Positions 1 through 10,162 of a stretch of DNA of 10,162 nucleotides are shown here, in pieces (within the stretch, counting starts at the first letter, position 1; each line of letters begins with the position of its first letter). A program made the translations under genes and the position numbers. The stretch lies in UHGV virus genome UHGV-0247313; one strand, given 5' to 3'. The notes under the pieces were generated by a model. That model was not told where the DNA came from. It worked only from the letters and a program-made list of their open reading frames with translations, and searched no databases. The stretch is from a virus.

Positions 1-241
1 TGATGGCATCGGGCTGGTTATCCCGCAGCCACAGCAAAACCGGGGCCATCAGCAGATTCTGGTCGCCGCTGAAATCCTCAATCACCGCGTTCAGGGTGTA
101 ACGGTACTCCCACGACATGGAGCTGGCCCCCGTGGCAACCAGCGAACCGTTATCCACAAACAGATGCAGTTTGTCCGGGTTATTGCGGACATAAGGCACC
201 GCTTTATTGAGGGCGTGGCGCAGGGATTGTGGTTTGTTCAC
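1..241 (-). CDS. R: Tail completion protein gpR-like, 5' part only (runs off the left edge)
   Basis: Minus-strand frame open from a GTG at 241..239, preceded by AGGAG 7 nt upstream, to position 1. Translation VNKPQSLRHALNKAVPYVRNNPDKLHLFVDNGSLVATGASS...LLWLRDNQPDAI resembles P2 gpR as I recall it. It overlaps the lysC 3' end, as in P2. Not in the ORF track because it has no stop in the window. Confidence 0.6.
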   Translation of the reverse strand, partial: MNKPQSLRHALNKAVPYVRNNPDKLHLFVDNGSLVATGASSMSWEYRYTLNAVIEDFSGDQNLLMAPVLLWLRDNQPDAI

Positions 242-494
242 TGTTTCGCTCCTGACACGCAATAATCATGTCCACTTTGTCTGCACAGACCGCCCAGGCG
301 GCCTCCGTTTCATCCAGCAACGCGTTCAGATCACCGTTAGTGCGCGGCGTTGCCTGATCCAGCCGACACGGCGTCACTCGCGGACAACCACTGACGGTAA
401 GCTGTACCTCCGGTGAGTGCCGGACGTTCCCGCAGCCGGATAATGTCAGCAGGCAAAGGAGTATCAGCCCAGCGGCGTAAATCCTCGTTCTCAC
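204..494 (-). CDS. lysC: o-spanin (Rz1-like outer-membrane lipoprotein), LysC-like
   Basis: 96 aa with a lipoprotein signal and lipobox (LLTLSGC). Starts inside lysB in another frame, the typical spanin arrangement. Confidence 0.8.
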   Translation of the reverse strand: MRTRIYAAGLILLCLLTLSGCGNVRHSPEVQLTVSGCPRVTPCRLDQATPRTNGDLNALLDETEAAWAVCADKVDMIIACQERNSEQTTIPAPRPQ

Positions 495-765
495 GTTTCA
501 GTTCCTCGATCCGGTGTTGTCGTTGTCTCAGCAGTGCACTGGTCTGTTCTGCTTCGGCATAGAGCCGCGCCTGCTCCCGGTTATTGGTTTCAGTCAGAAT
601 GGACAGGCTGATAAGCTGGCTGTTTTTCTTCGTCAGTTCCTGCGCTTTACTTTTCAGCGCCGCGCGCTGCGTTTCGATGGTGTGGCTGGCGCTGTTAAGC
701 CGCCACGACTGCCAGCCCAGCGCAACGAGTGCCAGCGCCACCACTACTGCCAGCGCACGCGTCAT
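337..765 (-). CDS. lysB: i-spanin (Rz-like), LysB-like
   Basis: 142 aa with an N-terminal transmembrane helix (ALAVVVALALVALGW) and a charged coiled-coil-like remainder. AAGGAG lies 8 nt upstream of the ATG at 765. Contains the embedded lysC. Confidence 0.8.
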   Translation of the reverse strand: MTRALAVVVALALVALGWQSWRLNSASHTIETQRAALKSKAQELTKKNSQLISLSILTETNNREQARLYAEAEQTSALLRQRQHRIEELKRENEDLRRWADTPLPADIIRLRERPALTGGTAYRQWLSASDAVSAGSGNAAH

Positions 766-925
766 AGTCCAGCTCCTTTAAGGCACCAGGCCATCTCCCG
801 CGCACGGCGGTTATCCAGCCCCTGATTAAACACACCTTTTACATAAACCCAGCGCGGCAACTGTCGGCACGCATCTGCCCAGCGCCGCTGATTGAGCAAT
901 TTCACCAGTGTGGAACTACAGGCAT
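766..925 (-). pseudogene. 3' remnant of an upstream lysis-module gene (lysA position), left by a deletion
   Basis: A minus-strand frame stays open through ...RRWADACRQLPRWVYVKGVFNQGLDNRRAREMAWCLKELDY* and stops 1 nt past the lysB start. It has no plausible start and abuts the O 3' end. Confidence 0.3.
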
Positions 926-1654
926 TGCCCGTTGCTGCTTCTGCAGAGCAGACTCCAGTTCAGACAGGCGTTCTTCCTGCTCAGACAGAGATTTTTCGGT
1001 TCGCGCGCTCAGGTTTTGCTGCTCAGTGGCGACCAGCTCCACGGCCTTATGCACATCAGAGAACCGGGCGTCATCGGACTGCTCTTTTTTGGTGAACAGC
1101 GCCGTGACGCGGGAAAACAGGGACGGTTTGTCGTCCTGGACTTCCTCCAGTTCGATCACCGTTTCCTCTGCAGCGGTAAAGAGATTGGCAGGATTCTGCT
1201 TGCGGTTTGCCAGCGGGTTATGGGCTGCACTGGCGCTGAATGTCAGCATTTCAGTGCCCAGACTGGCAGGGTCATCAGTGGCAGCCAGGCCGACCAGGTA
1301 GGCTTTGCCCGTATCAGCGAACTTCGGGCTGACTTCCATAGAGGTGAATAATTTCTGGCCTTTTTTCACCAGTTCCACCAGGGACTCCGTTGGCTCAACG
1401 TCGGCATACAGCGCCATCTTGCCTGCCAGCGGACCTTCCGTGATTTCCTCAGCAAACAGCGCCGTCACCTTGCCGTAGCGGTTAAAGGTGCTGTCCGGCA
1501 GATAAGACTTGATGTGCTCAAGGTTAATCAGCGCGGTATACACCGCCGGGTTGTAGCTGGCTGCCATCTGTTCCAGCCATTCACGCTGGATTTCGCGTCC
1601 GTCGGTGGTGGCACCTTCCACCCCGATGCGAAAACGCTTTGCTTTCACTGTCAT
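902..1654 (-). CDS. O: Capsid scaffolding protein gpO-like, probably 3'-truncated with a junction-derived C-terminus
   Basis: 250 aa. FRIGVEGATTDGREI...INLEHI...YLVGLAATDDPASLGTE...SDDARFSDVHKAVE matches the P2 gpO family. GGAG lies 8 nt upstream of the ATG. Shorter than P2 gpO as I recall it (about 284 aa); the last residues (RAMPVVPHW) look junction-derived. Confidence 0.85.
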   Translation of the reverse strand: MTVKAKRFRIGVEGATTDGREIQREWLEQMAASYNPAVYTALINLEHIKSYLPDSTFNRYGKVTALFAEEITEGPLAGKMALYADVEPTESLVELVKKGQKLFTSMEVSPKFADTGKAYLVGLAATDDPASLGTEMLTFSASAAHNPLANRKQNPANLFTAAEETVIELEEVQDDKPSLFSRVTALFTKKEQSDDARFSDVHKAVELVATEQQNLSARTEKSLSEQEERLSELESALQKQQRAMPVVPHW

Positions 1655-1732
1655 GAGCCGTGCTCCGTTAAAAAAAACTTACTGGAGCCTTATGGTTGCG
1701 GTGATGGGGGTAGTGAAACAATGCGCGGTATT

Positions 1733-1750
1733 TGTACCGACAACCACACA
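1733..1750. promoter_or_regulatory. Candidate Ogr/Delta-type late-activator site (TGT-N12-ACA) in the divergent O/P late promoter region
   Basis: TGTaccgacaaccacACA in the 142-bp O-P intergenic region. P2 late promoters carry TGT-N12-ACA dyads centred near -55. Confidence 0.4.
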
Positions 1751-1796
1751 AACCGCAGGCGGGGAAAGCCTTCATTCAAGGCTGTAGGTTTGTGCC

Positions 1797-3563
1797 ATGA
1801 ACACCACACTGACACCCGCAGATCTCGATCCCCGTCGGCAGGCCATGCTGCTGTACTTTCAGGGATACCGCGTAGCCCGCATTGCTGAAATGCTGGGCGA
1901 GAAAGTTGCAACCGTTCACAGCTGGAAAAAACGCGACAAGTGGGGTGACTATGGGCCGCTGGATCAGATGCAGCTCACCACCGCCGCACGCTACTGCCAG
2001 CTCATTATGAAGGAGCACAAAGAAGGGAAAGATTTCAAAGAGATTGACCTGCTGGCGCGCCAGTCGGAGCGCCATGCGCGGATCGGCAAGTTTAACAATG
2101 GCGGCAACGAAGCCGACTTAAACCCTAACGTCGCCAACCGCAACAAAGGCCCGCGTCGTCAGCCGGAAAAGAACGTTTTCACCGATGAACAGATTGAGAA
2201 GCTGGAAGAAATCTTCCATTCCTCCATGTTCAACTACCAGCGCCACTGGTGGGAAGCCGGAAAAACCAACCGCATCCGCAACCTGCTGAAGTCACGCCAG
2301 ATCGGCGCGACCTTCTATTTTGCCCGTGAAGCCCTGATTGACGCCCTGCTAACCGGGCGTAACCAGATTTTCCTTTCCGCCAGCAAGGCACAGGCCCACG
2401 TCTTTAAGCAGTACATCATCGACTTCGCCAAAGAAGTGGAGGTGGAGCTGAAAGGCGATCCGATAGTGCTTCCTAACGGGGCCACGCTGTACTTCCTCGG
2501 CACCAATGCCCGCACGGCCCAGAGTTACCACGGCAACCTGTATCTGGATGAATATTTCTGGATACCGAAATTCCAAGAGCTGCGCAAAGTGGCTTCCGGT
2601 ATGGCTATTCACAAAAAATGGCGACAAACCTATTTTTCCACGCCATCCAGCCTGACACACAGTGCTTATCCGTTCTGGTCCGGTGCGCTGTTCAACCGTG
2701 GGCGCAACAAAGCCGACAAGGTGGACATCGACCTGTCCCACAGCAATCTGGCCCCCGGCCTGCTGTGCACAGACGGGCAATACCGCCAGATAGTCACCGT
2801 GGAAGATGCGGTGCGCGGCGGCTGTAACCTGTTCGACCTCGACCAGCTACGCATGGAGTACAGCCCGGACGAATACCAGAACCTGCTGATGTGCGAGTTC
2901 GTGGACGATCTCGCGTCCGTGTTCCCGCTCAGCGAGCTGCAAGCGTGCATGGTGGACAGTTGGGAAATCTGGACCGACTTTCATGCACTGGCCCTGCGCC
3001 CGTTTGGCTGGCGCGAAGTGTGGATCGGTTATGACCCGGCAAAAGGTACGCAGAACGGCGACAGTGCCGGATGCGTGGTGGTGGCACCGCCAGCCGTGCC
3101 GGGTGGTAAGTTCCGCATTCTTGAGCGTCACCAGTGGCGCGGGATGGACTTCCGCGCCCAGGCTGACGCCATCAAAAAACTGACCGAGCAGTACAACGTG
3201 ACCTACATCGGCATCGACTCGACAGGTGTCGGCCACGGGGTTTACGAGAACGTGAAAGCGTTTTTTCCAGCCGTCCGGGAGTTTGTCTACAACCCCAACG
3301 TTAAAAACGCCCTGGTACTCAAGGCCTACGACATTATCAGTCACCGTCGTCTGGAGTTTGACGCCGGACACACCGACATAGCGCAGTCATTTATGGCAAT
3401 CCGTCGCGCCACCACCGCCAGCGGCAACCGCCCAACCTATGAAGCCAGCCGCAGCGAAGAAGCCAGCCATGCCGATCTGGCCTGGGCAACAATGCACGCA
3501 CTGTTTAACGAACCGCTGCAGGGCGAGTCCGCCAATACCAGCAATATTGTGGAGATTTTTTGA
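1797..3563 (+). CDS. P: Terminase large (ATPase) subunit gpP-like
   Basis: 588 aa, the size and family of P2 gpP. Divergent from O. Its stop overlaps the portal start (TGATG). Confidence 0.9.
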   Translation: MNTTLTPADLDPRRQAMLLYFQGYRVARIAEMLGEKVATVHSWKKRDKWGDYGPLDQMQLTTAARYCQLIMKEHKEGKDFKEIDLLARQSERHARIGKFNNGGNEADLNPNVANRNKGPRRQPEKNVFTDEQIEKLEEIFHSSMFNYQRHWWEAGKTNRIRNLLKSRQIGATFYFAREALIDALLTGRNQIFLSASKAQAHVFKQYIIDFAKEVEVELKGDPIVLPNGATLYFLGTNARTAQSYHGNLYLDEYFWIPKFQELRKVASGMAIHKKWRQTYFSTPSSLTHSAYPFWSGALFNRGRNKADKVDIDLSHSNLAPGLLCTDGQYRQIVTVEDAVRGGCNLFDLDQLRMEYSPDEYQNLLMCEFVDDLASVFPLSELQACMVDSWEIWTDFHALALRPFGWREVWIGYDPAKGTQNGDSAGCVVVAPPAVPGGKFRILERHQWRGMDFRAQADAIKKLTEQYNVTYIGIDSTGVGHGVYENVKAFFPAVREFVYNPNVKNALVLKAYDIISHRRLEFDAGHTDIAQSFMAIRRATTASGNRPTYEASRSEEASHADLAWATMHALFNEPLQGESANTSNIVEIF

Positions 3564-3979
3564 TGGGAAAGAGTAAGAAAAACCGCGCTGCGGCGACGAA
3601 CCAGATCCAGCATAAAAACCAAACTTCAGCCGAAGCATTCAGCTTCGGTGATCCCGTTCCTGTTCTGGACCGCCGCGAATTACTGGACTATGTGGAATGC
3701 GTAAAGATGGACCGCTGGTATGAGCCACCCGTAAGTTTTGACGGACTGGCGCGAACATTCCGCGCCGCCGTACACCACAGTTCACCGATTGCAGTAAAGT
3801 GCAACATTCTGACCAGCACCTACATCCCTCACCCGCTGCTCAGCCAGCAGGCGTTTTCACGTTTTGTGCAGGACTATCTGGTTTTTGGTAACGCCTACCT
3901 GGAGAAACGCACGAACCGATTCGGTGAAGTTATCGCCCTTGAGCCTGCGCTGGCAAAATACACCCGACGCGGATTAGAC

Positions 3980-4030
3980 GAACAGCGTGGCGGACTCGTT
4001 GAGCAGGGCGGATGGGATGGCAGAAAGATA
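3980..4030. repeat. Inverted-repeat arm, exact reverse complement of 4161..4211 (51 bp)
   Basis: Base-by-base comparison. A further 9-bp pair is 3971..3979 ggattagac and 4151..4159 gtctaatcc. Confidence 0.95.
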
Positions 4031-4160
4031 GCCGGGCAGGCCGTAGATCTCCTGGTTGATGTCCGGTTCCATCAGATGAAAAATGCTGCCTTTCGTGAAC
4101 TGATACGGCTGCGTGGTCATGCCGTATTGCACAAACCAGTAGGTATCTAGGTCTAATCCC

Positions 4161-4211
4161 TATCTTTCTGCCATCCCATCCGCCCTGCTCAACGAGTCCG
4201 CCACGCTGTTC
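4161..4211. repeat. Inverted-repeat arm in native orientation, partner of 3980..4030
   Basis: Encodes in-frame native portal sequence YLSAIPSALLNESATLF. Confidence 0.95.
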
Positions 4212-4657
4212 CGCCGAAAGTATTACATTAACGGTAGTCATGCAGGCTTCATCATGTACATGACCGATGCCGCGCAGAACCAGGAAGATGTGAACAACCT
4301 CCGCAATGCGATGAAAAGTGCCAAAGGCCCTGGCAACTTCCGCAACCTGTTTATGTACTCGCCTAATGGTAAAAAAGACGGACTTCAGATTATCCCGTTG
4401 TCAGAAGTCACAGCGAAGGATGAGTTTCTGAATATCAAGAACGTGAGCCGTGATGACATGATGGCGGCACACCGCGTGCCGCCGCAAATGATGGGAATTA
4501 TGCCTAATAATGTCGGGGGGTTTGGGGATGTGGAGAAGGCTAGCAAGGTATTCGTAAGAAACGAATTGATGCCCCTGCAGAAACGATTGCAGGAACTAAA
4601 TAACTGGTTGGACGAAGAAGTGCTCAATTTTTCAACCTATGAGCTTTAGTTTTAAAA

Positions 4658-4685
4658 CGAAGACCATTAGGTCTTCGCTTTATTT
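4658..4685. terminator. Bidirectional intrinsic terminator between convergent Q and the retron RT gene
   Basis: 8-bp stem cgaagacc/ggtcttcg with loop atta. T-rich tracts on both sides (ctttattt on plus; ttttaaa on minus). The RT stop codon sits in the loop. Confidence 0.6.
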
Positions 4686-5629
4686 AAAGGGTTCTTTCCA
4701 TATTTTTTTTCTAATTTGCTAATATAAGTTATTAATCTCCTATGGCTTTTTGAATCCACACTTAAAATAAATGACAACCATCCCCTAACGTGTTCTATCT
4801 CAGAAGACTTACCGCAAAATATATGATGTATCTTTGCTCTAATTTCTTTATATTTTTCTCTACCTATCCCAACTTTCTCTTGTGAAATAACTAAACCTGT
4901 AACTTTCCTCTGACTACGAGGCCCACTAATACAAGTTTTTTTTGAGTTAATAACCAATCCTTCACTTGGGATTATAGAAAATAAAAAATCACGTGCTTTA
5001 ACAACCTTTTTCATAGACTGTGCAGATAAGGTGAGATCATCGGCATATCTCGTATATATCAAGCCCCGACTACCTGCATAACCCTGAATACGATAATCAA
5101 GTTTAGAACATATTAGATTAGCTAATTTAGGTGATGATGGAGCACCTTGTGGTAGCAGATTTTTATAACAACATATTTTTGTCAAAACTGAAGATATTAG
5201 TCGATTATAACCAAGAGAATGGAACACTCCAAAAACTTTGTTAGCAGTTAAACTTGGGAAAAAATCCTCCAAATCAATATTCAGTATAAAGTTTGCCCCA
5301 ATATGCGGGGTAGCATTATTCAAAATAGATTGGTGCTTTTCAAATCCAATAGAAAAAGGAGATGACGACAGTTTATCTAAAATGTTACGTAGAACCCATC
5401 CTTGTAAGGCTTTAAGTTCTCGAGAAGGTTGGTAAATGGTTCTCATTCTCTTCTCTGGGCCTTTCTTTTCTACAGTGTAGATCCTATAGCGAAAATCAGC
5501 TGTATAGATTAACAACCGAAGTGTTTCAACAGATATGCGAGTCGCCTTAGACATGTCATGCAAATTGTTCATGACAGGTAGGCCGAGATTTCTCAATCTA
5601 AAAGTGTTCAAATATTCAGCGGATTTCAT
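4667..5629 (-). CDS. ret: Retron reverse transcriptase, Retron-Eco1 (Ec86)-type
   Basis: 320 aa with RT motifs: NIDLEDFFPS (motif A), LPQGAPSSPKLANL (motif B), YADD (motif C). Directly downstream of the msr-msd element. AT-rich unlike the flanking phage genes. Confidence 0.95.
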   Translation of the reverse strand: MKSAEYLNTFRLRNLGLPVMNNLHDMSKATRISVETLRLLIYTADFRYRIYTVEKKGPEKRMRTIYQPSRELKALQGWVLRNILDKLSSSPFSIGFEKHQSILNNATPHIGANFILNIDLEDFFPSLTANKVFGVFHSLGYNRLISSVLTKICCYKNLLPQGAPSSPKLANLICSKLDYRIQGYAGSRGLIYTRYADDLTLSAQSMKKVVKARDFLFSIIPSEGLVINSKKTCISGPRSQRKVTGLVISQEKVGIGREKYKEIRAKIHHIFCGKSSEIEHVRGWLSFILSVDSKSHRRLITYISKLEKKYGKNPLNKAKT

Positions 5630-5635
5630 GAAAGT

Positions 5636-5804
5636 TGCGCACCCTTACGTCAGAAAAAACGGGTTTCCTGGTTGGCTCGGAGAGCATCAGGCGATGCTCT
5701 CCGTTCCAACAAGGAAAACAGACAGTAACTCAGATTCAATGCAGGATGCCGAAACAACATCCAGAGGTTGACCTTAATGATAAACCTCTCGCTAAGGGTG
5801 CGCA
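5636..5804 (-). ncRNA. msr-msd: Retron msr-msd non-coding RNA (msDNA template), Ec86-type
   Basis: Flanked by 12-bp inverted repeats: tgcgcaccctta at 5636..5647 and taagggtgcgca at 5793..5804. Internal 10-bp perfect msd stem ggagagcatc/gatgctctcc at 5679..5702. Lies immediately upstream of the RT start. Matches the Ec86 msr-msd as I recall it. Confidence 0.85.
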
Positions 5805-6715
5805 TACGGAATCTTATCATAGTTAAATGTTGATTTTCTACGGTTTTCAAAATTCATAATCTCAAGCCGCAATCGGTCAAGTGTCTTTCTATCAAAGACG
5901 CTCCTAACATAGCTAGCCCCCAAAGCAGTGACCTGATAACCATCAGTCATTTGAAGTATTTTTCGTTCATTTATTAGACGAGAAACAACGGATCTAACAA
6001 TAATTTTAGATAAAACATCATCTTGCTTTATCGCTTTAAAAGCTAGTTCACACAGTGTGCGGTAGTTGACACTATCCAGTAAATAGATACAAGGCAATAG
6101 AAACCGCTCTGCGTATAATATATTTCCAATATCTTTTGATACTTTATTTTCTTTCCTAACCTTCTTAATAGATGCCATTAATTTTTTATATAATCGTAAT
6201 TTTCTGGCAACATCAATAGATGAATCACACATTTCTTTTAGTTCATTTGAACTACAACGCAAAACAGATTTTGAATTAAACTTACGCAACAGGCGAACAG
6301 GACCATAGTTAATAAAGCTACGTTTTGATTTAAATTTTGCATCTTGAATGCAAATCAACTTTCTCCTTAAGTTTTCATTATTAGAGAACGCACCAAGCTC
6401 TGTGAAAGACCCCGGACTTTCAGGAAATAAAATTATTACATCGACAGCTTCAGCCAGAATATTTTCTAAACTTAAAAGGCTATGCTGCCCTTGACCAGCC
6501 AAAAGATCATCAAATAGATCTTCTGGATAAAATATATCAACATCACTGAACTTTGCTAAAAATTGTGATAATTGATGACGCCAAGATTGATGATTAGCAA
6601 CGTCACCACCACATAGAAAAATGGTTATTTTAATATTAGCTCCTCGATAGAAGCCTTTCTTTGTGAGATGTCCTATAAGCTGTTGTTGCTGCTCATCGGT
6701 AAATTTTTTATTCAT
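5792..6715 (-). CDS. Retron effector: nucleoside deoxyribosyltransferase-like (NDT-like) N-terminal domain with a C-terminal putative DNA-binding domain
   Basis: 307 aa. N-terminal Rossmann-like motifs (ITIFLCGGD; VIILFPESPGSFTELGA). Upstream of and overlapping the msr a1 repeat. Same AT-rich composition as the RT gene. Confidence 0.8.
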   Translation of the reverse strand: MNKKFTDEQQQQLIGHLTKKGFYRGANIKITIFLCGGDVANHQSWRHQLSQFLAKFSDVDIFYPEDLFDDLLAGQGQHSLLSLENILAEAVDVIILFPESPGSFTELGAFSNNENLRRKLICIQDAKFKSKRSFINYGPVRLLRKFNSKSVLRCSSNELKEMCDSSIDVARKLRLYKKLMASIKKVRKENKVSKDIGNILYAERFLLPCIYLLDSVNYRTLCELAFKAIKQDDVLSKIIVRSVVSRLINERKILQMTDGYQVTALGASYVRSVFDRKTLDRLRLEIMNFENRRKSTFNYDKIPYAHP

Positions 6716-7187
6716 AATCTCCCCGCTTTTTTTTCTACTTTATACATCAAGTTATGAATAGATCCAATCTCCATACCACATGGCGCGCGCTCGTATCCCC
6801 GCCACGCCTGCCCGCTTTATGCAGTGGTTTTCATGCACATGCATAACATGAGCAAAAGCCCGCCAGTTCTGGCGGATCTGAGCAAAGACGATCCTCAATC
6901 GATCATGCGATTTCATGCAGCATAGTCATGCACTGTCAAGGAAGTGAAAATCCGTATCTGAATGGCCACTTGAAAAACGGATCATACGGGTTTACAAAGA
7001 TGAATGTTCGCTGTGAACGGGAAGCGGAAGTTAACTTTCAGATAACATAATCCATATGCACGAGAACCTCTAAAATAGAATGGGACACCTAAGCGGGGTA
7101 CTTACAACGATTCTTTCCATATTCACAGTTAACACTCTGTTTGGCGTATTTTTATTCAAATAGCAAACACCAATAAAAGGAGTTTCC

Positions 7188-7523
7188 ATGAACAATATTC
7201 CCCCTATACCACAGTTAGGAATTTATGTCTCAAAAATCGATCCCACCCTACGTATCACTGTAACCGATGTTGATATTGTTGATGGTGAGGATGATTCTCC
7301 TGATGATGAATTGTTTTATTTAGTCCACTGGATCGAGGGGGAAGATGAAAGTGATATGACAGCAATGGGATTTGAGCTAGACCCAGTAGAGTGGCAGGCT
7401 TTCGTTGAATCTGAGCAATTAGTGTTTGAGCGTGATCCGTACATGGATTCAATCCCCGAAAATTCAAACTTGGCAAAGATTCGGGATTTTCTCATGAAGA
7501 CTAAACAGAATGATCATTCGTAA
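7188..7523 (+). CDS. Hypothetical small, strongly acidic protein (111 aa)
   Basis: AAGGAG lies 7 nt upstream of the ATG. About 26 Asp+Glu against about 8 Lys+Arg by manual count. No family recognised. Confidence 0.6.
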   Translation: MNNIPPIPQLGIYVSKIDPTLRITVTDVDIVDGEDDSPDDELFYLVHWIEGEDESDMTAMGFELDPVEWQAFVESEQLVFERDPYMDSIPENSNLAKIRDFLMKTKQNDHS

Positions 7524-7677
7524 GTGTAAGCATCCATCAGGAAAATGGTTTTGTAAGTGAATCATCAACTTTTAGAGAGTCTCAGACACTCCCACTTCTG
7601 CTTCTGACACAAAGCGGACGATCACTTATCAAAATAACCGCCCACCTTACGCCTTATTTCACTCATTGCCCAAACTA

Positions 7678-7707
7678 GCCCCCATCAGAATGAATCCTCC
7701 TGGGGGC
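7678..7707. terminator. Possible weak hairpin terminator downstream of the DinI-like gene
   Basis: 7-bp stem gccccca/tgggggc with a 16-nt loop. Weak T-tracts on both sides. Confidence 0.2.
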
Positions 7708-7715
7708 AACATTTC

Positions 7716-7949
7716 TTAATGCAGCCAGCTGTCGTCCTCCCACACCTTCTGCATAATTTTCATCACTTGTTTTCTTTCTTCATCCAGTTGCAGTCCGGTT
7801 AGTTCCACACCGTTAGAGCTACCTTTGCGAATGCGAATTACCGTTTTGGGATACAGGGGGCGCAGATTGCGGTAAAGCTCGGATTCAAGGGCGTCCAGGG
7901 TAGACTGGCTAATCTTCTGCTCTTTATCGATCATTATTTCAATGCGCAT
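7716..7949 (-). CDS. dinI: DinI-like protein (SOS-response family)
   Basis: Start chosen at the internal ATG 7949..7947, preceded by AGGTGA with a 5-nt spacer. MRIEIMIDKEQKISQSTLDALESELYRNL...QKVWEDDSWLH has DinI family length and pattern. The track ORF 7716..8021 is a spurious 5' extension. Confidence 0.8.
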   Translation of the reverse strand: MRIEIMIDKEQKISQSTLDALESELYRNLRPLYPKTVIRIRKGSSNGVELTGLQLDEERKQVMKIMQKVWEDDSWLH

Positions 7950-7959
7950 AAAAGTCACC

Positions 7960-8148
7960 TCAGCTGATGACATCCATTGAGCGGTTGTATTCGTGGCTTC
8001 TGATTTTTGCCATGAGTTCATCAGTCAATTCAGAAACCCACTGCAGAGCCAGCCCCTTCTCTTCATCACTACACTCACTAGCCGCTACAAGCTTAAGAAA
8101 AAAATCAATGCGCTGGAGCTTCAAAGACTCCAAAAAATAGTCCTGCAT
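7960..8148 (-). CDS. Hypothetical 62-aa protein, first gene of the LexA-box operon
   Basis: AGGAGG lies 4 nt upstream of the ATG. Its stop overlaps the dinI-like RBS, suggesting coupling. No family recognised. Confidence 0.5.
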   Translation of the reverse strand: MQDYFLESLKLQRIDFFLKLVAASECSDEEKGLALQWVSELTDELMAKIRSHEYNRSMDVIS

Positions 8149-8188
8149 CTTTCCTCCTATGACACCAAAACAATACTGTATACATAAC

Positions 8189-8208
8189 CACTGTTTATAT
8201 TTACAGTA
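8189..8208. promoter_or_regulatory. LexA box (SOS operator) upstream of orf62 and the DinI-like gene
   Basis: caCTGTttatatttACAGta fits the CTGT-N8-ACAG consensus with an AT-rich spacer, about 40 bp upstream of the orf62 start. A second half-site tactgtata lies at 8174..8182. Confidence 0.65.
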
Positions 8209-8300
8209 TATAATAATCTTACTGATGTAAAACGTTTTTTTACGTTCATCGGCCTGATATGCCTGGTATTATTAAGAGCACGAATTGTCAACCCGCGTAA

Positions 8301-9746
8301 TTAATACAGGTTCCGCCACTTATCATCTTCCTTCAGACGCTGGTTCCGATAGAAGATACGCAGGCCTGCTCCTGACGGAATACTGCCGCCGCGAAGGAGC
8401 AAATCGACTTCTTTCTCGCTGCCATCAAATCCCCTGGACTTCAGTTCATAGACGAGCTGCTGTCGCTGATGGTCTGTAATTCGCTGTTTGTAGTCTTTAC
8501 GCCGTTTCGGTTTCACCTGGCGTAACCTTGCAGCCAGTTCCCGGCGCTCTTTTTTGCTCATACTGTGCAGGTAATTGTGCAACTCCTTGTCATTCATACG
8601 GGTAATATCCGTTCTGGAGTCCCCATCAGCTGATTTGTCTTTCCCTTGTTGGTTCAAATTTTCAGCAAGGGGACAGTTATTGCCACGAGTCCAAGGGGCG
8701 CAAGCGCCCTGGTCGGCTGCCGCCTCCTGAACGTCAACGGCCTTACGAACCATTTTCCACTTCACCGCATGAGTGCAGATCTTGCCCTCTGCAATGGGTG
8801 ACCAGATGCCATAAATACGAATACCGTGATCGCCATATGCGGTCGGTTCTTCGTTGATTTCATAAGCAGTTCTGATGAGGTGATATTTGCGGGGAACCAG
8901 TACGCCGCCCTGCTTCATGATGTAGGTGGCAAAACAACCAGCATCAGCAGCAGCCAGGATTGCATCAAGACGCGGGTTATCCAGTACCGGCGCACCTGCT
9001 TTTTTGTCACCCTGTTGCCTTGCCGCCTGACCAGCCAGCAATCGCAGTTCACGGTAAGCCTGACGCCCCGGAATGCCAAAGAAGCGGAATTGCTGAACAC
9101 GATGCAGAGACGCCCAGGCATTAACGTATTCAGCGTTATCACGCAGGGATTTACCCGTTTCCTTGCTGATCTCCCCAGCCAGACCACGCCCGTCAATGTT
9201 CTTACTGATGTATTTCGCGATATAGCTTGTTGGCGTACCTTTGCGCGGGTTTATCAGCTCAGACTTAAAGCGTGGTCCCGTGTTATTGCCCAGCTCCTCG
9301 CGGTCTTCACGGATGGCAAACTTACGCAGTAATGCAGTGATGGCGCGGCGGTCTTTTTTACGCATGAAACACATGAGATGCCAGTGCACAGTACCGTCAT
9401 GATGCGGCTCAGCTACCGCACCTGCAGCAACACGCCCGATCTCTGCGGTTGCACTCATGACGTAATGTGGCAGTTTCTCTTTTGCCACCTCATTAATCGG
9501 TACGCATGGCAGGCAGTGAATCTGAGCCAGAAAACCATCTACCAGCGTTGAATCTTCAGTCAGATCGGTAAGCAGCCAGATTTCTGGTGCGGTTAATAAA
9601 TGAGGTTGCGCTGGGTTCAACTTGTTCCGCAGAATCTGCACATTCATGCCAGCACGTTCTGCCAGTTGCACCAGGTTGTGGCGCAATGCGAATGCACGAC
9701 AGGCTTCATCAAAATGTGGATGTTTGGAAACTTGGTAATCAAACAT
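8301..9746 (-). CDS. A: In-frame fusion: CII-like regulator N-terminus (about 110 aa) joined to a P2 gpA-like rolling-circle replication nickase C-terminal region
   Basis: N-terminus [25 protein letters not shown]...[29 protein letters not shown] matches the phage CII (186 CII/CP76-like) family. It then switches to [15 protein letters not shown] (HUH motif) and [12 protein letters not shown] (paired catalytic tyrosines). The HUH motif sits near residue 120 here; in P2 gpA as I recall it sits far further in. Start taken at ATG 9746, as in the plus-strand copy at 10087. Confidence 0.75.
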
Positions 9747-9805
9747 GGTCAATGCCTCTGATGTATTTCAGAATCGAACTAATTAAGGTTTAGATTGCAT
9801 TCTGA
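9671..9805. repeat. Left arm of a 135-bp perfect inverted repeat (partner 10028..10162)
   Basis: Exact reverse-complement match over the full length, limited by the window end. Holds the cII-like start, the intergenic region and the last 9 codons of the 73-aa ORF. Confidence 0.95.
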
Positions 9806-9832
9806 TCATCATTAAACGAGGAATGTTGCATC

Positions 9833-10054
9833 ATGAGACCTAACATTTCAATCACTCTTACCACCCCTCATGTGACTATTGAACGCTATAGCGAGCTGAC
9901 AGGGCTATCCATCGATACCATCAATGACATGTTGGCTGATGGACGCCTTATCCGTCACCGACTGCGCAAAGATAAAAAACGCGAAAAAGTGATGATCAAC
10001 ATAGCAGCAATGACCGTTGATGCGCTTTCAGAATGCAATCTAAACCTTAATTAG
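9833..10054 (+). CDS. Small helix-turn-helix DNA-binding regulator (Apl/Cox-like?)
   Basis: 73 aa with an HTH-like segment ([23 protein letters not shown]) and a basic tail. Sits directly upstream of the plus-strand cII-like start, as apl/cox precedes cII/B in 186/P2-type early operons. Confidence 0.45.
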
Positions 10055-10162
10055 TTCGATTCTGAAATACATCAGAGGCATTGACCATGTTTGATTACCA
10101 AGTTTCCAAACATCCACATTTTGATGAAGCCTGTCGTGCATTCGCATTGCGCCACAACCTGG
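10028..10162. repeat. Right arm of the 135-bp inverted repeat (partner 9671..9805)
   Basis: Reverse complement of 9671..9805. It may extend past the window end. Confidence 0.95.
10087..10162 (+). CDS. CII-like regulator, 5' end only (second, plus-strand copy; runs off the right edge)
   Basis: ATG at 10087 with AGAGG upstream. [25 protein letters not shown] is identical to the N-terminus of the minus-strand fusion gene. Confidence 0.65.

What the first reader, a model, noticed from the sequence alone, without database searches (positions are those of the whole stretch)
766..935. Deletion junction: scaffold gene O abuts lysB, capsid/lysis block missing
In P2 the order is O, N, M, L, X, Y, K, lysA, lysB, lysC, R. 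Here O homology ends around ...ESALQKQQ, the frame continues into unrelated residues (RAMPVVPHW*), and about 140 bp later lysB starts. Roughly 4 kb expected to hold major capsid, small terminase, head completion, holin and endolysin is absent, unless those genes lie elsewhere. The element probably cannot form capsids or lyse unaided.
Basis: partly seen in the sequence, partly recalled or inferred. Interest (0 to 1): 0.5.

Follow-up and report, generated by a model that had tools for sequence, protein, structure and literature searches.

The report
Deletion scar in E. coli B prophage
This is a real but ordinary deletion scar in the well-known defective P2-like prophage of laboratory E. coli B/BL21, where 3,148 bp holding the capsid, small-terminase, head-completion, holin and most of the endolysin genes were lost.

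Summary
The window is the retron-Ec86-bearing P2-family prophage of E. coli B (BL21 sublineage). It matches 44 complete B-lineage genomes at 100% over window 1-9805 apart from an inverted 180-bp stretch, and all 44 carry this junction. Near-isogenic intact relatives (E. coli 20A24 prophage, phage Cartapus) show that 3,148 bp are missing. The loss covers O codons 242-277, N, M, L, X, holin Y and endolysin K codons 1-115.

- O does not abut lysB. The ~170 nt between them is the 3' remnant of the endolysin gene (codons 116-171). The "unrelated" tail RAMPVVPHW* is that remnant read out of frame.
- The loss is 3.15 kb, not ~4 kb. The closest intact relatives have no lysA.

The breakpoints share only 2 bp (AA) and there is no IS element, so this was illegitimate recombination. 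The lost genes are nowhere else in any B-lineage chromosome, and the second P2-type element of B has lost the same block. The prophage has further deletions, so it cannot make heads or lyse. RefSeq already flags the endolysin fragment as a pseudogene.

The parts
932..1654 (-). O' : truncated capsid scaffold/protease gene, codons 1-241 of 277. The protease N-terminal domain is kept. The last 36 codons, which lie in the C-terminal scaffolding domain, are lost.
   Evidence: Pfam PF05929 E=2e-105, profile positions 2-236 of 268. tblastn with the intact O of 20A24 aligns residues 1-244 at 99.2% identity; the match past codon 241 is chance extension. Domain limits of P2 gpO are from PMC7552001.
902..931 (-). 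Frameshifted tail of the O' ORF: 9 codons (RAMPVVPHW) plus a TGA stop, read from endolysin DNA in the wrong frame.
   Evidence: ORF translation; three-way alignment at the junction.
932..933 (.). Deletion junction: a 2-bp 'AA' shared by both parental sequences. 3,148 bp are missing here relative to Cartapus 4535-7682 and to E. coli 20A24 NZ_CP147044.1 ~2,832,365-2,835,512.
   Evidence: There is no IS element and no longer repeat at the breakpoints.
762..933 (-). 'K : 3' remnant of a SAR-type GH24 endolysin gene (codons 116-171 plus stop). It lacks the N-terminal membrane anchor and the catalytic Glu/Cys/Thr region. The stop overlaps the lysB start (ATGA).
   Evidence: tblastn: 100% identity over residues 116-171. 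Pfam PF00959 positions 90-125 of 125. The intact protein matches P1 Lyz 1XJT/1XJU and P21 R 3HDE. RefSeq marks it a pseudogene 'missing N-terminus'.
337..765 (-). lysB (Rz-like i-spanin), intact.
   Evidence: 100% identical to lysB of the intact 20A24 prophage; RefSeq annotation.
204..452 (-). lysC (Rz1-like o-spanin), intact, overlapping lysB.
   Evidence: Pfam PF23793 E=6e-16; tblastn 100%.
2..241 (-). 5' part of tail completion gene R, cut by the window edge.
   Evidence: tblastn residues 1-80 at 100%.
1655..1796 (.). Divergent O/P intergenic region, the expected location of the late promoters. It contains a TGT-N12-ACA motif at 1733-1750.
   Evidence: The motif is present, but its count in the window is not above chance, so only its position is suggestive.
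1797..3563 (+). P, large terminase subunit, intact.
   Evidence: Pfam Terminase_6N, Terminase_6C and Terminase_5.

Best explanation
The window comes from the defective P2-family prophage integrated between rcdA and ybjL (the rybB site, called 'Rybb*B') in E. coli B, specifically the BL21 sublineage. This is the prophage that carries retron Ec86/Eco1.

At window 932|933 a single illegitimate-recombination event joined codon 241 of the scaffold/protease gene O to codon 116 of the endolysin gene K, using only a 2-bp AA overlap. It removed 3,148 bp: the end of O's scaffolding domain, the major capsid gene N, the small terminase M, head completion L, gene X, holin Y, and the membrane-anchor and catalytic part of K. 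O' now runs out of frame into the K remnant for 9 codons and stops. The remnant is followed directly by intact lysB and lysC.

The event predates the split between the REL606 and BL21 lineages.

Shown here: the junction, its size, its gene content, its distribution, and the absence of the lost genes elsewhere in the genome.

Inferred: the element can no longer build heads, cut cos DNA or lyse the cell. The scar itself has no function. It is one step in prophage decay, along with a sheath-to-D tail deletion and, in BL21, a CII'-'A deletion.
For: - Identity of the window: 100% over window 1-3979 and 4160-9805 to 44 complete B-lineage genomes (BL21, BL21(DE3), C41/C43, REL606, B, ATCC 11303 and others). 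Windows 3980-4159 and 9805-10162 also match, but in inverted orientation.
- Distribution: 44 of 5,426 genomes carry the junction. In about 1,000 others the two halves match separately, breaking at window 927-941.
- Intact references: the 20A24 prophage sits at the same chromosomal site, carries the same retron, and is 100% / 99.9% identical on the two flanks. It has O-N-M-L-X-Y-K-lysB with no pseudogenes. Cartapus gives the same 3,148-bp gap.
- Retained and lost parts: K residues 116-171 and O residues 1-241 are retained; N, M, L, X and Y give no hit.
- Timing: REL606 has the same junction but an intact early region.
- Absence elsewhere: all 44 B-lineage chromosomes give only the marker hit with both halves of the deleted segment, while intact relatives give extra hits.
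- Second element: the other P2-type element of B (P2*B at cyaR; Table 2 of PMC3032704) has Q' abutting S' and none of these genes.
- Literature: the P2-like prophage of B/BL21 is reported to carry retron Ec86.
Against: - Nothing contradicts the deletion reading.
- Loss of capsid formation and lysis is inferred from gene content, not measured.
- The blastn screen reaches only about 65-70% nucleotide identity, so very distant analogues would be missed. Distant GH24 endolysins and holins of lambdoid cryptic prophages do exist in B: RrrD of DLP12 is a detectable protein homologue of K, and B has DLP12 (Table 2). These belong to other elements.
- The window differs from every reference genome by two small inverted duplications, at 3980-4159 and 9805-10162. 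Its exact source is therefore not among the 5,426 complete genomes. The junction region itself (window 1-3979) is 100% identical to them.
Confidence: 0.97

Rival explanations
1. This is the natural gene order of some P2-related lineage or satellite-like element that never had capsid and lysis genes between O and lysB.
For: None found. The only point in its favour is that P2-family lysis cassettes do vary: lysA is present in 500465-1 and absent in Cartapus and 20A24.
Against: Both genes at the junction are truncated fragments: O lacks 36 codons and K lacks 115 codons. Relatives that are 99-100% identical on both flanks carry the 3,148-bp block. The junction is confined to one clonal lab lineage, 44 of 5,426 genomes.
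Confidence: 0.01
2. The junction is an assembly or sequencing artefact of this particular window.
For: The window does contain two inverted duplications found in no complete E. coli genome, so its source sequence is not fully trustworthy.
Against: The junction and 3.9 kb around it are 100% identical in 44 independently assembled complete genomes, including REL606 and several BL21(DE3) assemblies.
Confidence: 0.01
3. The deletion was made by a mobile element or by homologous or site-specific recombination between repeats, not by illegitimate end joining or replication slippage.
For: E. coli B is rich in IS1 (28 copies; Table 3 of PMC3032704), and IS-adjacent deletions are common in this strain.
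Against: There is no IS sequence or remnant at the junction. The window sequence switches from O to K with only a 2-bp overlap, and no direct repeat of 25 nt or more exists in the window. An IS that caused the deletion and then excised precisely cannot be excluded, but it would leave no trace.
Confidence: 0.03

Closest known systems
Rybb*B, the P2-like defective prophage of E. coli B (REL606/BL21) that carries retron Ec86/Eco1
   Same: It is the same element. Sequence is 100% identical across the junction and across 9.6 kb of the window, and it sits at the same chromosomal site (rcdA/rybB-ybjL).
   Different: The window has two small inverted duplications (3980-4159 and 9805-10162) that are absent from all reference copies. 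REL606-type copies lack the BL21-type CII'-'A deletion.
Intact prophage of E. coli 20A24 (NZ_CP147044.1), and phages Cartapus (Elveevirus) and 500465-1 (Wadgaonvirus), family Peduoviridae
   Same: Same gene order and 97-100% nucleotide identity on both sides of the junction. 20A24 has the same integration site and the same retron.
   Different: They keep the 3,148-bp O(3')-N-M-L-X-Y-K(5') block, the tail sheath/tube/tape-measure genes and a full early region.
P2*B at cyaR in E. coli B, and the ogr-D' remnant at the same site in K-12
   Same: These are other decayed P2-family prophages. P2*B has also lost its head and lysis block.
   Different: P2*B is a true-P2-type element with different breakpoints (Q' fused to S') and a larger loss, P through R.
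SAR endolysins P1 Lyz (1XJT/1XJU) and P21 R (3HDE)
   Same: The intact K of this phage lineage aligns with them over the whole length, including the EGC...C...T catalytic stretch and the N-terminal hydrophobic anchor.
   Different: In the window only the C-terminal third survives, so no enzyme can be made.

Membership tests
P2-family (Peduoviridae) prophage | GPO scaffold/protease gene divergent from the terminase P and portal Q genes | tested here: met
   Pfam hits for O, P and Q; synteny with Cartapus and 20A24.
P2-family (Peduoviridae) prophage | Late operon O-N-M-L-X-Y-K-lysB-lysC-R complete, i.e. a functional phage | tested here: not met
   tblastn finds no N, M, L, X or Y, and O and K are truncated. 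The element is a defective member, not a viable phage.
P2-family (Peduoviridae) prophage | LysB/LysC overlapping spanin pair followed by R | tested here: met
E. coli B prophage Rybb*B (retron Ec86 carrier) | Retron Ec86 RT and effector between portal and cos; integration between rcdA and ybjL | tested here: met
   RT at 4667-5629(-) and effector at 5792-6715(-) are 100% identical to BL21/REL606. Literature.
GH24 SAR endolysin | N-terminal signal-anchor-release segment and catalytic Glu-8aa-Cys/Asp-5aa-Thr stretch | tested here: not met
   Only residues 116-171 remain. In the intact relative the catalytic stretch lies at about residues 41-56, by alignment to P1 Lyz. The residue roles are from my own knowledge of P1 Lyz.
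Phage satellite (P4-like or PICI-like) that lacks capsid genes by design | Clean module boundaries with whole genes at the edges, and no large set of helper-type structural genes | tested here: not met
   Both edge genes are fragments. The element keeps terminase, portal, baseplate and fibre genes. Sid/Psu-type capsid-redirecting genes were not searched for.
IS-mediated or repeat-mediated deletion | An IS element, or a direct repeat of several bases or more, at the breakpoints | tested here: not met
   Only a 2-bp AA overlap; no repeats of 25 nt or more.

The most novel reading that the evidence does not exclude
The evidence does not exclude that the scar leaves a working unit. If a superinfecting P2-family phage (or the resident ogr) switched on the late promoter upstream of O, a short transcript O'-'K-lysB-lysC-R-S would be made. 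O' would keep its protease domain but lack the end of its scaffolding domain, so it might act as a dominant-negative poison of the incoming phage's head assembly. That would be a domesticated anti-phage function sitting next to retron Ec86. The loss of the head and lysis block from both P2-type elements of E. coli B would then reflect selection, not chance decay.
Probability: 0.05. Interest if true: 0.45.

Novelty: already known. Interest (0 to 1): 0.1.

Why it matters
It matters little beyond housekeeping.

- It pins the exact breakpoint, size (3,148 bp) and gene content of one of the deletions that make the BL21/REL606 retron-bearing prophage defective.
- It shows that RefSeq's 250-aa 'GPO family capsid scaffolding protein' (WP_000216259.1) is a truncated, frameshift-tailed product that is not flagged as a pseudogene.
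- It identifies a near-isogenic intact prophage (E. coli 20A24) that could serve as the ancestral reference for work on retron Ec86 in its native phage context.
- For users of BL21, it supports the view that this element cannot produce particles or lyse cultures.

Tried and rejected
- An Rfam scan of the whole window at gathering thresholds found nothing. The retron msr/msd region was not recovered this way.
- A PDB sequence search with intact O found no solved relative. The O domain limits were taken from PMC7552001 instead.
- The P2 late-promoter motif TGT-N12-ACA occurs at 1733-1750 between O and P, but two matches in the window is no more than chance. It is used only as a positional hint.
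- The E. coli B genome papers (Jeong et al. 2009; Studier et al. 2009, J Mol Biol) are not held. Searches for 'P2 Hy dis' and for a defective P2 prophage in BL21 gave nothing directly on this deletion. I recall the classical report that E. coli B carries a defective P2-related prophage that recombines with P2 to give P2 Hy dis, but I could not verify it. By gene content it more probably concerns the other element, P2*B.
- I first took the BL21 CII'-'A junction to have 12 bp of overlap, from the BLAST coordinates. Inspection showed a BLAST gap artefact, and the real overlap is 4 bp, TACC.
- Considered and rejected: natural gene order, assembly artefact and IS-mediated deletion (see the rival explanations).

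Full report
**What is in the window.** The ORF map and Pfam scans show a P2-family late region read leftwards on the minus strand:
- R' at 2-241
- lysC at 204-452 (PF23793)
- lysB at 337-765
- a 47-codon ORF at 762-905 that matches only the last 36 positions of the Phage_lysozyme profile (positions 90-125 of 125)
- a 250-codon GPO scaffold/protease ORF at 902-1654 (PF05929, E=2e-105, covering profile positions 2-236 of 268)

The large terminase P (1797-3563) and a portal gene run rightwards. Further right lie a retron reverse transcriptase (4667-5629, minus strand) with its effector (5792-6715, minus strand), and a replication-gene fragment.

**Checking the observation.**
- Megablast of window 1-2000 against 50,697 phage records finds no record that covers it in one piece. 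The O/P side matches down to window 927-941, and the lysis side matches separately.
- Against phage Cartapus (NC_070909.1), window 932-3979 equals Cartapus 4534-1487 at 96.5% identity, and window 1-933 equals Cartapus 8613-7681 at 97.1%.
- A three-way alignment shows the window switching from the O sequence to the K sequence at a shared AA (window 932-933), with no other similarity between the two parental sites.
- The coordinate offsets give a gap of 3,148 bp.

**A near-isogenic intact reference.** A whole-window search of 5,426 complete E. coli genomes turned up E. coli 20A24 (NZ_CP147044.1). Its prophage sits at the same chromosomal site (next to rcdA), carries the same retron and has no pseudogene flags.
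- Window 1-933 is 100% identical and window 932-3979 is 99.93% identical to it. The same 3,148 bp are missing (locus L004 14934-18081, about NZ_CP147044.1 2,832,365-2,835,512).
- In 20A24 that interval holds the last 36 codons and stop of O, N (P2-family major capsid protein), M (terminase endonuclease subunit), L (head completion), X, an HP1-family holin, and the first 115 codons of a 171-codon lysozyme.
- tblastn with the 20A24 proteins confirms what the window retains: O residues 1-241 (the alignment runs to 244 by chance), K residues 116-171 at 100% identity (window 932-765), and all of lysB and lysC. It finds nothing for N, M, L, X or Y.

- O does not abut lysB. A 172-nt endolysin remnant lies between them.
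- O codon 241 (CAA) occupies 934-932, while K codon 116 (ACG) starts at 932. The O frame therefore reads the K remnant out of frame for nine codons (RAMPVVPHW) and stops at 904-902.
- The K remnant ends in the usual ATGA overlap with lysB.
- The loss is 3.15 kb, not about 4 kb. lysA is not expected, because Cartapus and 20A24 go from K directly to lysB. Phage 500465-1 does have an extra gene there.

**What the lost and kept pieces mean.**
- Intact K matches the SAR endolysins P1 Lyz (1XJT/1XJU, E=2e-26) and P21 R (3HDE). The match includes the N-terminal hydrophobic segment and the EGC...C...WT stretch at about residues 41-56. That these are the anchor and catalytic residues is my own knowledge of P1 Lyz. 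All of this lies in the deleted part.
- For P2 gpO, residues 1-141 are the protease, and residues 195-284 are the internal scaffold that is absolutely required for procapsid assembly (PMC7552001). O' keeps the protease part and loses the last 36 residues of the scaffold part.
- Without N, M, L, the holin and an active endolysin, the element cannot build or fill heads or start lysis. This is an inference from gene content.

**Whose prophage this is, and how old the scar is.**
- The window is 100% identical over 1-3979 and 4160-9805 to 44 complete genomes. All of them are E. coli B derivatives: BL21, BL21(DE3), C41/C43, BLR, NEB Express/T7 Express, REL606, B, ATCC 11303, NCTC10537, AS19, and one record labelled 'strain C, cow's milk'.
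- Exactly 44 genomes carry the junction as one piece. About 1,000 others match the two halves separately.
- In BL21-type genomes the prophage runs from the integrase to ogr between rcdA and ybjL. RefSeq annotates the K fragment as a 'glycoside hydrolase family protein, incomplete, missing N-terminus', but lists O' as an ordinary 250-aa protein.
- REL606-type genomes have the same O'-'K junction but an intact early region from CII to A. The scar therefore predates the REL606/BL21 split.
- The 3,370-bp CII'-'A deletion present in the window (junction at about 9414-9417, TACC overlap) marks the BL21 branch.
- Both branches also have an invertase'-'D deletion that removes the sheath, tube, tape-measure and related tail genes.
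- The literature names this element Rybb*B, a P2-type prophage at rybB that carries retron Ec86 (PMC3032704). It also describes retron-Eco1 as encoded in a P2-like prophage of BL21 (bioRxiv 10.1101/2020.06.22.160242).

**Are the missing genes elsewhere?**
- Table 2 of PMC3032704 lists a second P2-type element in B, P2*B at cyaR. I fetched it from REL606. It is a true-P2-type remnant in which a portal fragment abuts a fragment of gene S, so genes P through R are gone there too. tblastn finds none of the query proteins in it.
- For a genome-wide test I joined a 2.1-kb retron marker, which makes the B-lineage genomes rank first, to each half of the deleted segment. I ran sensitive blastn against all complete genomes.
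- All 44 B-lineage chromosomes gave a single place, the marker. The four intact retron-bearing relatives gave two or three places.
- The second search also detected 1,341 genomes at 60-80% identity, so true-P2-type N genes were within reach.
- Caveat: distant protein-level analogues in other cryptic prophages, such as the DLP12 lysozyme RrrD (a detectable homologue of K), would not be seen by blastn. They belong to other elements.

**Mechanism of the event.** There is no IS element, no repeat of 25 nt or more and only 2 bp of overlap. This points to illegitimate recombination, either end joining or replication slippage. The TGT-N12-ACA motif at 1733-1750 in the O/P intergenic region sits where a P2-type late promoter site would be expected, but it is not statistically distinctive. 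If that promoter still fires, the transcript would now read O'-'K-lysB-lysC-R-S. This is inference only.

**Comparison with what is known, and verdict.** This is the known defective P2-like prophage of E. coli B, and the endolysin pseudogene is already annotated. The finding is ordinary prophage decay: novelty 'already known', interest about 0.1. The only less ordinary reading left open is that O', possibly together with the retained spanins, has been co-opted against incoming P2-family phages. I give that about 5%.

**Side observations.** Two stretches of the window, 3980-4159 and 9805-10162, are inverted duplications found in none of the 5,426 complete genomes. The first breaks the portal gene. 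They do not touch the junction.

Noticed in passing
window 3971-4211: Window 3980-4159 is the reverse complement of the reference B sequence and replaces only 119 bp of it. The structure is a + rc(a+u+b) + b, with a = 9 bp, u = 119 bp and b = 52 bp. This adds 61 bp, creates a perfect 52-nt inverted repeat (3980-4031 / 4160-4211) and splits the portal gene Q into ORFs 3560-4150 and 4254-4649. No complete E. coli genome (0 of 5,426) has it. It may be a fold-back rearrangement, an assembly artefact or an altered sequence; I cannot tell which.
   Followed up: partly
window 9671-10162: The same kind of anomaly occurs at the window's right end. Window 9805-10162 runs in the opposite orientation to all reference genomes, giving a perfect 135-nt inverted repeat (9671-9805 / 10028-10162). 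It is absent from all references.
   Followed up: partly
window 8301-9752 (junction ~9414-9417): A BL21-branch-specific 3,370-bp deletion fuses the 5' part of the CII-family regulator gene to the 3' part of the replication endonuclease gene A. The overlap is 4 bp (TACC), and the result is a 483-codon chimeric ORF. REL606-type B genomes have this region intact: CII, Fil, DUF5347, DUF2732, TraR/DksA, Dam and full-length A.
   Followed up: yes
window 4667-6715: Retron Ec86/Eco1: RT at 4667-5629(-) and NDT-like effector at 5792-6715(-), with the msr/msd region presumably in the 162-nt gap between them. It occupies the variable slot between portal gene Q and cos (a cos-like match lies at 6779-6836). 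The Rfam gathering scan returned no family for the window.
   Followed up: partly
L004 (E. coli 20A24, NZ_CP147044.1 ~2,816,000-2,851,000): An apparently intact, retron-Ec86-bearing prophage sits at the same chromosomal site and is 99-100% identical to the B element. Three further genomes (VG1046-3E9, JNE082640, FDAARGOS_433) also carry the retron in undeleted P2-family prophages. These could be useful ancestral references for Ec86 biology.
   Followed up: partly
L006 (REL606 NC_012967.1 2,100,400-2,122,350): The second P2-type element of E. coli B (P2*B at cyaR) has also lost its head and lysis block, with portal' abutting S'. It has truncated tube and D genes too. It keeps an ABC-three-component-system defence cluster in the variable slot.
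   Followed up: partly
L003 28361-29001 / L005 4250-4890 (outside the window): A third deletion in the same prophage fuses a DNA-invertase fragment to a gpD fragment. It removes the tail sheath, tube, E/E', tape-measure and U genes. It is present in both the BL21 and REL606 branches.
   Followed up: no
RefSeq NZ_CP029371.1 ('Escherichia coli strain C', cow's milk): This record carries the REL606-type B prophage with the identical junction and retron at 100% identity. Either the strain label does not mean the classical E. coli C, or the genome is a B-lineage strain.
   Followed up: no
window 902-1654 (-): RefSeq lists the truncated, frameshift-tailed O' as a normal protein (WP_000216259.1, 'GPO family capsid scaffolding protein', 250 aa), while the adjacent K fragment is flagged as a pseudogene.
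   Followed up: yes
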